A stretch of 64,000 nt of DNA from Escherichia coli (GTDB lineage: Bacteria; Pseudomonadota; Gammaproteobacteria; Enterobacterales; Enterobacteriaceae). Shown here piece after piece: positions 41,901-44,900 of the stretch. Location of the stretch: the NCBI RefSeq assembly GCF_048403405.1, contig NZ_CP183129.1. One strand, 5' to 3'. Position numbers: made by a program. How positions within the stretch are numbered: the stretch's first letter is position 1; every line of letters begins with the position of its first letter.

Positions 41901-44900
41901 CGCCGCTATCAGGCACAAATCAATGCGCTGAAGGCGACGCTGGACAGCCAAAAAATAACGGTATCGGTGATTCAGGCAAATCAGGGAAAAATTAATGTGA
42001 TGCATAGCTATCATTCGCTGGGGCGGGTATTACGCGATGCTGGTTTTCGCTTTCCGCCGCTGATTGAGAGCATTCCTGAAGGTGGGCGAATGGATGTGAG
42101 CGCAGAGCGTTTACCTGAACTGGATGCCGATTTTGTTTTTGCAACCTGGCGCGGTGACACCGGTGGTAAACCTCAGGATGAGCTGGCAGCAATGGAAAAA
42201 GTCATGCCGGGATGGTGTCAGTTTCTGACGGCCTGTCGTTCCGGGCGCTATGTGCTGATTTCTCGTGAAGAGGCGATTTCTAACTCCTTTGCATCTCTGG
42301 GGCTGATGGCTGCGCAGATACAATCACAAATTGCGGGACGACCTCTACCGGAGGCTAAATGATCCAGAAAGACAAAACGCGGGTTGATATTTATGGTGAG
42401 CGTTTTCGCACTCGCGCGAGTCAGTTAACGCCTGGGTTAAGAACTGTCGCAAGCTACATTAATGAGCATCGTGAAGTGGTACTCGAGCAAACGGCGATGG
42501 AAATTGCGGCCACGTTGAACACTTCCGATGCCACAGTTATCAGGGCTATACAGGCTCTGGGGTTTGCCGGGCTGCGTGATCTGAAACGCACACTGGAACA
42601 GTGGCTTGGTCCAGCCCTTAGTTCCAGCGAAAAGATGTCTACGACGGTGAGTAACTTGACGAGCGATGTTAACACCGCAATCGACTTTGTTCTTGAAGGG
42701 CATTTGTATACTTGTAATGTCCTGTCAGAGCCTGAAAACCGCCACGCGCTTGCGCAAGCTGTAGCGTTGTTGGTGCAGGCACGGCAAGTCGCTATTTTTG
42801 GCATTGGCGCTTCGGGTATCCTGGCGGACTATACCGCACGACTATTCAACCGCATAGGTTTGCCTGCCACGGCACTAAACCGTACGGGTATTGGCCTTGC
42901 CGAGCAACTGATCGCGCTTCAACGTGGCGATGTTCTGATCATGATGGCGCAAAAATCTGCGCACCGGGAAGGGCTGACAACGCTTCGTGAGGCGAGGCGG
43001 CTGGGGATCCCTGTTATTTTGCTGACAAACGCGCTGGATTCACGTTTTAGCAAAGACGCCAGTATCGTGATTCATGTTCCGCGCGGGGATGAAAGGGGGA
43101 AAACGCCACTACATGGTACGGTATTGTTGTGCCTGGAAATGATTGTTTGGTCGGTGGCTTCCGCGATGCCGCAGCGTGCGGTTAAAACCATTAAGCGAAT
43201 TAACGATTTCCATCGGGGTTTGAAAACGGGAAGAAAGAATGGCTAATCTGACCTGAGGCCGGTAGCAACACCGGCCTCTTTTCAGGAATGTTAAATCCCC
43301 GGTTGCAGAATACGGATATTCATCTCCAGCACGTCGCCTTTTACGGCTTCGCTGTACGCCTTCATGTGCGGGGTTTGCAGATGCGCTTCAAGATGCGCGA
43401 TGCTTTCCCACTGCTCAATCATCACGATAGAATCCGGTGCCATAGACTGGAAACTCACGCCAGCAGCGCAATCCACCATTGGCGTATAGCCGTGGCAACC
43501 TTCTTCTTTCAGTACGGTTGGAACGATTTTAGCAAACTGATCCAATACTGCCTGACGGTGATGTTGACCAGGACGAGTACGGATTTCTGCGATTACGGTA
43601 AGCATGGTTAACTCCTTCTAAAGCCTGAGCTCTAGTTAACCAAAAATTTCCACAAGATGCTTGCGATATTCTTCAGTATAGCGGGGAACATCAGGCATTT
43701 TTATCACGTCATTAGCGATAAATGTCGGCAGCGGTTCCATGCCAAGGAATTGGTTTGCTTTATGGAACGGCAGATACACACCGTCAACGCCAACGCCGTG
43801 GAAGAACTGATCTTTTTCGGTGAAGGCTTCCATTGGTGCGTTCCAGGTCAGAGAAAGCATATATTTTTTGCCCTGTACCAGGCCGCCGGAACCGTATTTT
43901 TTCGACGGATCTTTGCGGGTACGACCATCGCTGGCATACAGCGTCCCGTGACCTTCGGTGAATACATCATCAATGTATTTTTTCACTGTCCACGGCGCGC
44001 CCATCCACCAGCCTGGCATCTGCCAGATCACCACATCAGCCCAGAGAAAGTTTTGTACTTCCGCTTTGACATCGTAGTCGCTGTCGGCGCGAACGATGCG
44101 GACATCATGCCCGAGGTCGCGCAACGTGCCATCCGCGACTTCGGTCAGGGTGTCGTTCAGTTGACCATTGGAGTGGGCGAATTTTTTCGCGCCGTTGATA
44201 ATCAGGATGTTGCTCATTTTTTAACCTCAAGGTGAGACGTTTGTCGACTATAGTACGTCACAGAGCGGTACGGTGAAATTAGCAAAATGTGCAAAGTCTT
44301 TTGCTAATTTAGCAAAAGTCTGATCTTGCTCTGATTCACCGATGCGGGATAAATATTTTCTGAAAATGACAATACTGAAATCAACTTCCTATAAGTTCCC
44401 ACAGGAGAGATGTATTATGTAAATGATAAAGTAGTTTTTCGGAAAAAATAATCATGGAGAATATATATGTCAAATATCATATACTTATCAATTAAAGGAA
44501 AAACACAAGGTTTGATCTCTGAGGGCTGTGGTTCGTATGCATCTATTGGTAATAAATATCAAATAAATCATGTGGATGAAATTTTTGTTTTACAGTTCGA
44601 CCATTCTTTAAGTCGAGAATATAATGTAGTGCATCATCCCATAAAATTTTACAAGCCAATAGATAAATCCTCTCCTTTATTAAATGCTGCTCTTTCTGAA
44701 AATGAAGAGTTATCAGCTGTATTTAATTTTTATAGAATTAATTCTGGCGGTTGTATTGAAAGGTTTTACACAATTGAATTGCAAGGGGCATATTTATCGA
44801 ATATTCTGACTTGTTATCCACACTCAATTACACATGCGGGTAATCAACCGGAAGAGGTCATTGTTCTTAATTATAAAAATATAACATGGAAGCACCATAT

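What the first reader, a model, noticed from the sequence alone, without database searches (positions are those of the whole stretch)
44279..44318. Palindromic operator-like motif upstream of mdaB at the edge of the Hcp insert
The sequence TTAGCAAAA-N11-TTTTGCTAA is a 9-bp perfect inverted repeat, immediately followed by a direct repeat TTTAGCAAAAG. It lies 60-100 bp upstream of the mdaB start and about 150 bp upstream of hcp. The symmetry suggests a dimeric regulator binding site, which could control either divergent promoter.
Basis: seen in the sequence. Interest (0 to 1): 0.35.

Follow-up and report, generated by a model that had tools for sequence, protein, structure and literature searches.

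The report
LysR-type box and marbox upstream mdaB
The palindrome is real, but it is the chance sum of two older control sites in front of the quinone-detoxifying gene mdaB: a deeply conserved docking site for a LysR-type regulator (most likely the still uncharacterised E. coli protein YafC, counterpart of Neisseria CrgA) and a site for the MarA/SoxS/Rob stress activators.

Summary
The repeat exists and is longer than reported: 12 perfect bp, 44276-44287 / 44299-44310, plus a second 13-bp inverted repeat, 44295-44321. The perfect symmetry is a minority allele (218 of 5,413 E. coli genomes; K-12 and O157 carry G at 44305), and its outer half is not conserved between species.

In mdaB sense, about 85 Enterobacterales species conserve ATTATTGC-N7-GCAAAAGAC-TTTGCACATTTTGC, then a -10 hexamer exactly 49 nt after the proximal half-site.

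- **Distal dyad (window 44296-44319).** It matches the DNase-footprinted CrgA site 2 of the Neisseria crgA-mdaB spacer, in the same orientation and spacing. It lies beside a divergent yafC in one enterobacterial relative. It recurs at E. coli's own yafC start and in the dkgB promoter, again 49 nt from the -10. It persists where qseC is absent and the marbox has decayed. I read it as a YafC/CrgA-type LysR recognition site centred near -65.
- **Proximal block (44276-44295).** This is a strong forward marbox (13.85 bits) centred near -42. It overlaps the expected LysR activation site.

QseB, a qseBC terminator and a single 9-N11-9 operator are not supported. No binding or transcription-start experiment was possible here. 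Verdict: new member of known kinds, moderate interest.

The parts
44296..44319 (-). LysR-type (YafC/CrgA-type) recognition dyad. In mdaB sense it reads ACTTTTGC-TAAATTA-GCAAAAGAC. Core TTGC-N7-GCAA (a T-N11-A motif) is 44301-44315, centre 44308, about -65 from the inferred start.
   Evidence: Half-sites are invariant or nearly so in 80 Enterobacteriaceae, while the N7 spacer varies. The dyad is kept in Shimwellia, Tenebrionibacter-like taxa, isolate 4M9 and L089, where qseC is absent. It matches the footprinted CrgA site 2 of N. meningitidis in the same orientation. The same dyad occurs at the yafC start and in the dkgB promoter.
44276..44295 (-). 20-bp marbox TTTGCACATTTTGCTAATTT (15-mer core GCACATTTTGCTAAT, 44278-44292), forward relative to mdaB, centre about -42 (class II geometry). 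It coincides with the expected LysR activation-binding site, with two direct TTTGC half-sites.
   Evidence: A PWM built from 33 MarA ChIP-seq sites scores it 13.85 bits, rank 4 of 127,972 15-mers in the window and above the training median of 13.27. The same 15-mer is listed as a predicted marbox for mdaB in the S2 table of PMC12052159. TTTGCACATTTTGC is invariant across species, but RE2 varies. The equivalent interval is covered by CrgA site 1 in Neisseria.
44273..44278 (-). Weak -35-like hexamer TTTCAC, overlapped by the 3' end of the marbox.
   Evidence: It lies 17 nt upstream of the conserved -10 and matches the consensus poorly, as expected for an activator-dependent promoter. The scan of Salmonella L016 calls TTCACC-16-TAGAAT at the equivalent place.
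44250..44255 (-). -10 hexamer TACTAT of the mdaB-ygiN promoter (inferred).
   Evidence: T72, A73 and T77 are invariant and A76 is at least 90% conserved in alignment A2, after a variable spacer. The hexamer always starts 49 nt after the G of GCAAAAG: in mdaB of 8 displayed taxa including Neisseria, and in dkgB of E. coli and Dickeya.
44243..44243 (-). Inferred transcription start, uncertain by about 2 nt; 5' UTR of about 26 nt with Shine-Dalgarno GAGG at 44225-44228.
   Evidence: Inferred from the position of the -10 only. It was not measured. The nearest start sites listed in the PMC12052159 S2 table map to window 44276 and 44324 instead.
43636..44217 (-). mdaB (NADPH:quinone oxidoreductase), the regulated gene. 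ygiN (43291-43605) follows it in the same operon.
   Evidence: ORFs. RefSeq annotation of identical DNA. Co-transcription of mdaB and ygiN is shown in Salmonella (PMC2653508).
44305..44305 (.). T/G polymorphism inside the variable N7 spacer of the dyad.
   Evidence: K-12-like and O157 genomes have G. Only 218 of 5,413 genomes are identical over 44266-44325.
44321..44322 (.). mdaB-proximal junction of the Hcp-hypothetical-ygiZ island, relative to the ancestral qseC-mdaB spacer.
   Evidence: O157:H7 homology ends at 44321 and runs directly into the qseC stop codon. In 76 of 80 species qseC ends 102-110 nt before the mdaB ATG.

Best explanation
The motif is the upstream half of the mdaB-ygiN promoter and holds two overlapping activator targets.

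1. **Recognition site, 44296-44319.** This is the dyad (A)TT(A/T)TTGC-N7-GCAAAAG, a T-N11-A motif centred about -65. I infer that it binds a LysR-type regulator, and that this regulator is YafC, the E. coli orthologue of Neisseria CrgA. CrgA is an autorepressor that activates the adjacent mdaB.
2. **Activation site and marbox, 44276-44295.** A LysR tetramer or octamer would extend from the dyad onto TTTGCACATTTTGC, next to the -35. In the Escherichia/Salmonella/Citrobacter lineage this same 20 bp is also a strong forward marbox centred about -42, through which monomeric MarA, SoxS or Rob (RamA in Salmonella) would activate by the class II mechanism.

Those three bases are right only in a minority allele.

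**Shown here:** the sequence, its conservation, its spacing, the synteny and the match to a published footprint.
**Inferred:** that YafC binds it, the position of the transcription start, that the effect is activation, and any interplay between YafC and the Mar-type activators.
For: **Conservation.** 80 Enterobacteriaceae align without gaps. ATTATTGC, GCAAAAGACTTTGCACATTTTGC and a TAnnAT hexamer are invariant or nearly so, while the N7 and the 17-nt promoter spacer vary freely.

**Independence from qseC and from the marbox.** Shimwellia, Tenebrionibacter-like taxa, isolate 4M9 and L089 lack qseC upstream of mdaB. They keep the dyad and the 49-nt spacing, while the marbox score falls to between -17 and +1 bits.

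**Identity of the regulator.**
- In L089 mdaB is divergent from a LysR gene that meets the NCBIfam YafC equivalog (506.8 bits, cut-off 470). That protein is 75% identical to K-12 YafC and matches CrgA structure 3HHG at E = 1e-113, with a near-identical DNA-binding domain.
- PMC2724274 states that CrgA autorepresses and activates the divergent mdaB, that YafC is its close E. coli homologue (59% identity), and gives the 63-bp footprint.
- In a Neisseria contig, site 2 of that footprint reads GATTATTTC-ATTTGAC-GCAAAAGTG in mdaB sense. It lies 85 nt from the ATG (87 in E. coli), with CACAAT at +49.

**Regulon logic.**
- The same dyad, with 2 or fewer mismatches, abuts the yafC start codon in E. 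coli, Lelliottia and Dickeya.
- The dyad, with 1 mismatch, also sits upstream of dkgB or its aldo-keto reductase homologue in E. coli and Dickeya, again 49 nt from a -10.
- About 0.4 sites with 1 or fewer mismatches are expected by chance in a whole genome.
- dkgB-yafC is core to E. coli, present in 5,424 of 5,426 genomes.

**Marbox.** The site scores 13.85 bits, rank 4 of 127,972. It is a published prediction. mdaB is reported as a mar-regulon or RamA-dependent gene.
Against: - No binding, mutational or expression data for YafC at mdaB were available. The YafC ChIP-exo target lists of PMC6237786 are not held, so the link may already be known, or may be contradicted there.
- yafC is not linked to mdaB in E. 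coli.
- The transcription start is inferred. The starts listed nearest the site in PMC12052159 map to 44276 and 44324.
- mdaB is not among the 33 MarA ChIP-seq peaks in ETEC.
- The marbox is only moderate in many genera (median 8.7 bits; GCTCAT forms score 7.1). Conservation of the proximal block may therefore owe more to the LysR activation site than to Mar-type activators.
Confidence: 0.7

Rival explanations
1. One reading: the 9-N11-9 (really 12-N11-12) palindrome at 44276-44310 is one operator for a symmetric dimeric regulator that controls mdaB and/or the divergent hcp promoter.
For: The repeat is perfect in the window and improbable by chance. The inner GCAAAA/TTTTGC pair is conserved in all 80 species.
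Against: - The outer 6 bp of each arm pair no better than shuffled controls across species (69.9% against 69.7%, 197 of 500 shuffles as high).
- The perfect form is a 4% allele in E. coli.
- In distant taxa and in Neisseria the left arm is lost while the right arm and its other partner persist.
- The site predates the hcp island.
Confidence: 0.04
2. Marboxes only: all three TTAGCAAAA copies are MarA/SoxS/Rob sites (a class II site plus one or two upstream sites), and no other regulator is involved.
For: Both strands of the dyad score as weak marboxes, 9.0 and 7.6 bits. GCTAAATTCGCAAAA is listed as a predicted marbox for mdaB in the PMC12052159 S2 table. mdaB responds to Mar-type and RamA regulators.
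Against: - The positions that define a marbox (A3 and T9 of GCAnnWWnTGnnAAA) fall in the freely varying N7 and are rarely A or T.
- What is invariant is TTGC/GCAA with symmetric flanks.
- The dyad survives where the main marbox has decayed.
- It also occurs in Neisseria, where it is footprinted by a LysR protein.
- The dyad centre, near -63 to -67, is out of phase with the -62/-72 reverse class I positions reported in PMC10268841.
Confidence: 0.08
3. RNA or DNA hairpin: the inverted repeats form the intrinsic terminator of the upstream qseBC operon in the ancestral tandem arrangement, or another structured RNA.
For: - In 76 of 80 species qseC stops 0-10 nt before the dyad.
- preB (qseC) and mdaB are not co-transcribed in Salmonella.
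- The Salmonella diarizonae transcript folds to -15.6 kcal/mol, z = -4.3, followed by a U-rich stretch.
- The inner N7 positions pair slightly more often than in shuffles (75.2% against 72.5%).
Against: - The RNAalifold consensus is only -3.8 kcal/mol, with no compensatory pair.
- Enterobacter, Klebsiella and Kosakonia fold no better than shuffles (z +1.0, -0.15 and +0.1). E. coli is marginal (z -1.9 for the window, -1.15 for K-12).
- No canonical terminator is found in three species.
- There is no Rfam match.
- The dyad is kept where no gene reads into it, next to divergent parC or divergent yafC.
Confidence: 0.05
4. A QseB (PreA) binding site that couples mdaB to the neighbouring two-component system.
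For: Overexpressed PreA raises mdaB 7- to 32-fold in Salmonella, and the authors propose direct binding. In most species the gene lies next to qseBC.
Against: - The qseB-ygiW spacer has a PmrA/QseB-type CTTAAG-N5-GTTAAG direct repeat at 48135-48151. No such repeat exists upstream of mdaB.
- The motif is conserved in taxa that have no qseBC next to mdaB.
Confidence: 0.03
5. The dyad is a LysR-type box, but it is read in E. coli by a paralogue other than YafC.
For: T-N11-A boxes are generic. The CrgA/YafC cluster also contains proteins annotated AaeR and PtxR. yafC is unlinked to mdaB in E. coli.
Against: - The same extended half-sites sit at the yafC start codon in three genera and beside yafC in L089 and Neisseria.
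- The DNA-binding domain is nearly unchanged from CrgA to YafC.
Confidence: 0.08

Closest known systems
CrgA-mdaB module of Neisseria meningitidis (LysR-type regulator CrgA; structures 3HHG and 3HHF; 63-bp DNase footprint in the crgA-mdaB spacer)
   Same: - The target gene is the same, mdaB.
- The dyad is the same: ATTATT(G/T)C-N7-GCAAAAG, in the same orientation.
- The distance to the start codon matches (85 against 87 nt), and a -10-like hexamer starts 49 nt after the proximal half-site in both.
- A second protected block covers the interval that is the marbox or activation site in E. coli.
- The regulator orthologue exists in E. coli: YafC, 59% identical to CrgA per PMC2724274. The L089 YafC equivalog matches 3HHG at E = 1e-113.
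   Different: - In E. coli the regulator gene is unlinked (yafC lies beside dkgB at 0.23 Mb). It carries its own copy of the box at its start codon, and dkgB carries a further copy.
- The proximal block differs in sequence, and in E. coli it doubles as a marbox.
- No footprint or genetics exists for E. coli in the material I could read.
Class II MarA/SoxS/Rob (marbox) promoters of E. coli, the architecture described in PMC12052159 and PMC10268841
   Same: An asymmetric marbox GCAC-N5-GCTAA in forward orientation overlaps a poor -35 and is centred about 42 nt upstream of the inferred start. The score lies within the upper half of ChIP-verified sites. The gene is a reported mar-regulon member.
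   Different: - There is no ChIP-seq peak at mdaB in two genome-wide studies.
- The site is embedded in a longer invariant block whose conservation does not track marbox quality.
- An additional conserved dyad lies one to two helical turns upstream.
Generic LysR-type promoter architecture: a recognition site with T-N11-A near -65 plus an activation site near -35
   Same: The dyad centre is about -65, a second conserved block abuts the -35, the phasing to the -10 is strict, and a copy of the box overlaps the regulator's own start region (autoregulation).
   Different: The usual divergent pairing of regulator and target is broken in Enterobacteriaceae. It is retained in L089 and in Neisseria.

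Membership tests
LysR-type regulator recognition site of the CrgA/YafC type | Interrupted dyad with the T-N11-A signature | tested here: met
   TTGC-N7-GCAA at 44301-44315. The half-sites are invariant or nearly so in 80 species, while the spacer varies.
LysR-type regulator recognition site of the CrgA/YafC type | Sequence match to an experimentally footprinted site of the family | tested here: met
   CrgA site 2, quoted in PMC2724274, reads ATTATTTC-ATTTGAC-GCAAAAG in mdaB sense. That is 1 mismatch to the enterobacterial consensus over 15 specified bases, with the orientation confirmed on a Neisseria contig.
LysR-type regulator recognition site of the CrgA/YafC type | Centred near -65, with a second site next to the -35, in fixed phase with the core promoter | tested here: inconclusive
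   The 49-nt spacing to a conserved -10 hexamer holds in every mdaB and dkgB promoter examined. The transcription start itself is inferred, and published start-site lists give other nearby positions.
LysR-type regulator recognition site of the CrgA/YafC type | Cognate regulator gene adjacent and divergent | tested here: not met
   In the window the neighbours are hcp/ygiZ/qseC. yafC lies elsewhere in the genome. The feature is met in L089 and in Neisseria. It is a common feature of the family, not an obligatory one.
LysR-type regulator recognition site of the CrgA/YafC type | The same box at the regulator's own promoter (autoregulation), and the cognate regulator present in the genome | tested here: met
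   A dyad with 2 mismatches abuts the yafC start codon in E. coli K-12, Lelliottia and Dickeya. dkgB-yafC is present in 5,424 of 5,426 E. coli genomes.
LysR-type regulator recognition site of the CrgA/YafC type | Binding of the protein to the site and dependence of transcription on it | not testable with these tools
   The YafC ChIP-exo target lists (PMC6237786, Supplementary Figure S9) are not held. The YafC ChIP-seq data could not be modelled by BoltzNet.
Class II marbox (MarA/SoxS/Rob/RamA) | Match to the asymmetric marbox consensus | tested here: met
   GCACATTTTGCTAAT scores 13.85 bits, against a training median of 13.27, and ranks 4 of 127,972 15-mers. About 1 hit this strong is expected per 64 kb, so the match alone is not proof.
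Class II marbox (MarA/SoxS/Rob/RamA) | Forward orientation, overlapping the -35, centred between about -36 and -55 | tested here: inconclusive
   The site is forward relative to mdaB and centred at 44285, which is -42 from the inferred start. This depends on the inferred start.
Class II marbox (MarA/SoxS/Rob/RamA) | Occupancy by the activator in vivo or in vitro | tested here: not met
   [quoted passage not shown] The ETEC authors note that occluded sites and sites preferring SoxS or Rob are missed. I could not read Martin & Rosner 2002.
Class II marbox (MarA/SoxS/Rob/RamA) | The target gene responds to the activators | tested here: met
   From the literature: mdaB is called a mar-regulon member (PMC2989944; PMC6561319). 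It shows the largest drop after ramA itself in a Salmonella ramA mutant (PMC3139621).
Rho-independent terminator (of qseBC) | A stable, G+C-containing hairpin followed directly by a U tract, maintained by compensatory change | tested here: not met
   No terminator is called in three species. The consensus fold is -3.8 kcal/mol with 0 compensatory pairs. Fold z-scores are about 0 outside Escherichia and Salmonella.
QseB/PmrA-type response-regulator box | Direct repeats of YTTAAG spaced by 5 nt | tested here: not met
   Such a repeat is present at 48135-48151 in the qseB-ygiW spacer and absent from 44218-44330. The consensus itself comes from my own knowledge of PmrA boxes.
   The outer arm positions pair at chance level. 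The perfect allele is present in 4% of E. coli genomes.

The most novel reading that the evidence does not exclude
YafC, still listed among E. coli transcription factors of unknown function, is the ancestral dedicated activator of a small carbonyl and quinone detoxification regulon (mdaB-ygiN, dkgB and yafC itself). That regulon would be conserved from Neisseria to Enterobacteriaceae. In the Escherichia/Salmonella/Citrobacter lineage a class II marbox was then laid over the LysR activation site. Monomeric MarA, SoxS, Rob or RamA and oligomeric YafC would therefore share, or compete for, the same 20 bp. This would explain why a near-consensus marbox in front of a Mar- and RamA-responsive gene gives no ChIP-seq peak.
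Probability: 0.3. Interest if true: 0.65.

Novelty: new member of a known kind. Interest (0 to 1): 0.5.

Why it matters
mdaB is a widely cited member of the mar/sox/rob and RamA stress regulons, and yafC is one of the remaining E. coli transcription factors with no assigned function.

If the reading is right, three things follow:
- A single 45-bp stretch gives yafC a testable function, a binding motif ((A)TTnTTGC-N7-GCAAAAG) and three target promoters.
- The E. coli system is tied to the structurally characterised CrgA of Neisseria.
- The promoter becomes a compact case in which a LysR-type activator and AraC-type monomers use overlapping DNA.

It is also a caution for sequence reading. A perfect palindrome can be a by-product of two adjacent asymmetric or half-overlapping sites plus one neutral polymorphism.

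Tried and rejected
- **RNA structure or terminator.** RNAalifold, explicit pair counts for both inverted repeats, single-sequence folds in six taxa, terminator scans in three species and an Rfam search gave no conserved structure.
- **QseB.** I compared the motif with the qseB-ygiW spacer and found no shared motif.
- **The dyad as a second marbox.** The positions that define a marbox fall in the variable spacer.
- **Literature on the experimentally defined mdaB marbox.** Martin & Rosner 2002, Martin et al. 2008, Barbosa & Levy 2000 and Pomposiello et al. 2001 are not held. Statements about them rest on citing papers and on my memory.
- **YafC ChIP-exo targets.** The supplements are not held. 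Shi et al. 2016 on yafC* is not held either.
- **Acinetobacter and a Neisseriaceae isolate (L090-L092).** No dyad with 3 or fewer mismatches was found upstream of mdaB, so the box is not universal among mdaB genes.
- **Salmonella yafC locus (L095).** The contig ends just after yafC, and there is no clear box at its annotated start. This locus is uninformative.
- **A genome-wide count of the dyad in E. coli.** Only a theoretical expectation is given.
- **Other strong PWM hits in the window.** For example, 38572-38586 lies inside the first codons of an ABC-transporter ATPase gene. I judged these to be chance.
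Full report
**1. The observation**

The window is E. coli. mdaB (43636-44217) and ygiN lie on the minus strand. An Hcp gene (44467-44946), a 236-aa hypothetical gene and ygiZ lie on the plus strand. qseC and qseB follow on the minus strand.

The reported sequence is there: TTAGCAAAA at 44279-44287, 11 nt, TTTTGCTAA at 44299-44307, then TTTAGCAAAAG at 44308-44318. The repeat finder extends it:
- a perfect 12-bp inverted repeat at 44276-44287 / 44299-44310;
- a second inverted repeat of 13 bp (92%) at 44295-44307 / 44309-44321;
- a 12-nt direct repeat at 44276 and 44306.

This exceeds chance. The 9-mer occurs 4 times in 64 kb against 0.81 expected. Perfect 12-bp inverted repeats with short loops occur at four loci, against 0.1 expected.

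**2. Variation within E. coli**

The locus comes in three forms:
- Hcp-hypothetical-ygiZ, as in the window, in 1,260 of 5,425 genomes;
- ygiZ alone, as in K-12;
- neither, as in O157:H7, where qseC stops 109 nt before mdaB.

The motif lies in DNA common to all three. O157 homology ends at 44321, which is the real island junction.

K-12 and O157 carry G where the window has T at 44305, which breaks the palindrome. Only 218 of 5,413 genomes are identical to the window over 44266-44325.

**3. Phylogenetic footprint**

A scan for MdaB in one genome per species returned 80 Enterobacteriaceae loci. In 76 of them qseC ends 102-110 nt upstream of mdaB, so the tandem arrangement is ancestral. The Hcp/ygiZ island is an insertion, also seen at the same spot in Citrobacter werkmanii and a Pseudocitrobacter.

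In mdaB sense the spacers align without gaps:
- ATTATTGC (ACTTTTGC in Escherichia and Salmonella);
- 7 variable nt;
- GCAAAAGAC TTTGCACATTTTGC T(A/C)ATTT;
- about 17 variable nt;
- G-TAnnAT.

The window's TACTAT at 44255-44250 is the conserved -10. The -35 is poor (TTTCAC). The start is inferred at about 44243.

The outer 6 bp pair at chance level.

**4. RNA-level explanations fail**

- RNAalifold gives -3.8 kcal/mol and no compensatory pair.
- Folds are no better than shuffles in Enterobacter, Klebsiella and Kosakonia, marginal in E. coli, and good only in Salmonella.
- No terminator is called in three species.
- Rfam finds nothing.

**5. The proximal block as a marbox**

On the mdaB strand, 44292-44278 reads GCACATTTTGCTAAT. 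I built a PWM from the 33 MarA ChIP-seq sites of Sharma et al. (PMC5684230). It scores this site 13.85 bits, above the training median and fourth of 127,972 15-mers in the window. About one such hit is expected per 64 kb.

The site is forward relative to mdaB, overlaps the -35 and is centred about -42, which is the class II arrangement. The same 15-mer is listed as a predicted mdaB marbox in the S2 table of PMC12052159. Several papers call mdaB a mar-regulon member, and in Salmonella it shows the largest drop after ramA itself in a ramA mutant.

Against this, mdaB is not among the MarA peaks in ETEC. [quoted passage not shown]

Marbox quality also varies: 13.8 bits for the GCTAAT form in 29 species and 7.1 bits for GCTCAT in 24, yet TTTGCACATTTTGC is invariant throughout. 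The marbox alone therefore does not explain the conservation.

**6. The distal dyad**

More distant MdaB loci were fetched by exact-protein look-up.
- Shimwellia has an alcohol-dehydrogenase-like gene upstream of mdaB.
- Tenebrionibacter-like taxa and isolate 4M9 have a divergent parC there.
- None has qseC at that position.

In all of them ATTATTGC-N7-GCAAAAG is retained at exactly the same distance from a TAnnAT hexamer, while the marbox has decayed to between -17 and +1 bits. The dyad is therefore older than the marbox, independent of qseC, and phased with the core promoter.

**7. Whose site is it?**

In locus L089, mdaB is divergently transcribed from a LysR-type gene, and the dyad sits between them. 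That protein:
- meets the NCBIfam equivalog for YafC (506.8 bits, cut-off 470);
- is 75% identical to K-12 YafC;
- matches the CrgA structure 3HHG at E = 1e-113, with a nearly identical DNA-binding domain.

PMC2724274 states that CrgA of N. meningitidis represses itself and activates the divergent mdaB, and that YafC is its close E. coli homologue (59% identity). It quotes the 63-bp DNase footprint with two T-N11-A sites.

A Neisseria contig found with the site 2 sequence shows mdaB and crgA divergent. In mdaB sense, site 2 reads GATTATTTC-ATTTGAC-GCAAAAGTG. That is the enterobacterial dyad in the same orientation. It lies 85 nt from the ATG (87 in E. coli), with CACAAT 49 nt downstream. Site 1 covers the interval that corresponds to the E. 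coli marbox.

**8. Regulon logic**

In K-12, yafC lies between dkgB and yafD. The dyad occurs twice there:
- ATTATTGC-CAGAATC-GCAAAAA (1 mismatch), 88-109 nt upstream of dkgB, with CATAAT exactly 49 nt after the proximal half-site;
- ATTTTTGC-TCCTGTT-GCAAAAT (2 mismatches), abutting the yafC start codon.

The site at the start codon recurs in Lelliottia and Dickeya. The site upstream of the aldo-keto reductase gene recurs in Dickeya, with GATAAT at +49.

About 0.4 sites with 1 or fewer mismatches, and about 9 with 2 or fewer, are expected by chance in a whole genome. In the 10-kb K-12 stretch, only 1 of 200 shuffles reached the observed count. dkgB-yafC is present in 5,424 of 5,426 E. coli genomes.

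**9. Synthesis**

The left arm (44279-44287) is the marbox RE2, which also falls in the LysR activation site.

The most likely mechanism is as follows. YafC binds the dyad near -65 and the adjacent block, and activates mdaB-ygiN in response to an unknown effector. In Neisseria, induction by alpha-methylene-gamma-butyrolactone depends on CrgA but appears to be indirect. MarA, SoxS and Rob use the overlapping class II marbox.

The sequence, conservation, spacing, synteny and footprint homology are shown here. Binding by YafC, the direction of regulation, the transcription start and any competition with Mar-type activators are inferred.

**10. Comparison with what is known, and novelty**

LysR recognition and activation sites, and class II marboxes, are known kinds. 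CrgA-mdaB is a known system.

I found no paper in the searchable library that links YafC to mdaB or dkgB in E. coli. YafC was still called uncharacterised in 2022 and 2025. However, ChIP-exo data for YafC exist whose target list I could not read. I therefore file the finding as a new member of known kinds, with moderate interest.

Noticed in passing
window 44322-46043: The Hcp (T6SS_HCP) - 236-aa hypothetical (no Pfam hit) - ygiZ (DUF2645) module is an island inserted between the qseC stop and the mdaB regulatory dyad. The same module sits at the same site in Citrobacter werkmanii (L017) and a Pseudocitrobacter (L076). ygiZ alone is present in K-12 and E. whittamii. O157:H7 and 76 of 80 Enterobacteriaceae species have nothing there. 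This is an orphan Hcp, with no other T6SS gene nearby.
   Followed up: partly
window 45987-45995 (-): A fourth copy of TTAGCAAAA forms the last two codons and stop of ygiZ (TTT TGC TAA), at the far end of the island. It could be coincidence or a trace of the insertion event.
   Followed up: no
window 46005-46034: The inverted repeat CTATGAGAG...CTCTCATAG lies between the convergent ygiZ and qseC. It is a likely bidirectional terminator, brought in with the island, that would now end qseBC transcripts.
   Followed up: no
window 48135-48151: A CTTAAG-N5-GTTAAG direct repeat lies in the qseB-ygiW spacer, the pattern expected for a PmrA/QseB-type response-regulator box.
   Followed up: no
window about 36000-43250: A TonB-dependent siderophore receptor, a FecCD-type ABC transporter and a MurR/RpiR regulator lie between parE and ygiN. 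K-12 has parE directly next to ygiN. O157:H7 shares at least the ygiN-proximal end of the island (substrate-binding protein and MurR/RpiR genes).
   Followed up: partly
window 31465-31479 (-): The known tolC marbox GCACGTAACGCCAAC, in the nudF-tolC spacer, is recovered by the PWM. It is one of the training sites, so this is only a positive control.
   Followed up: yes
L093 3059-3080 and 4881-4902 (NC_000913.3 229058-229079 and 230880-230901): The K-12 dkgB promoter and the yafC start region carry the same LysR dyad as mdaB. In dkgB the -10 (CATAAT) is 49 nt from the proximal half-site, as in mdaB. This suggests a yafC-dkgB-mdaB regulon.
   Followed up: partly
L040 1681-1695; also L054, L058, L078, L081 (promoter spacer between -35 and -10): The mdaB promoter spacers of Klebsiella, Raoultella and Enterobacter sp. 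(L078) are G+C-rich and locally self-complementary (for example CCCCGCTTCGCGGGG), with different sequences in different genera. I have no explanation.
   Followed up: no
window 44276 and 44324 (K-12 U00096.2 3170500 and 3170452): The transcription start sites listed next to the two predicted mdaB marboxes in the PMC12052159 S2 table do not fit the promoter inferred from the conserved -10. They may be minor or pervasive starts.
   Followed up: no
L090 and L091 (Acinetobacter), 2330-2500: Acinetobacter mdaB-ygiN lies downstream of a GST gene. Its upstream DNA has ATCAATAAT-(A/G)-TTTTGC but not the enterobacterial and Neisseria dyad, so a different arrangement or a different regulator may operate there.
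   Followed up: no
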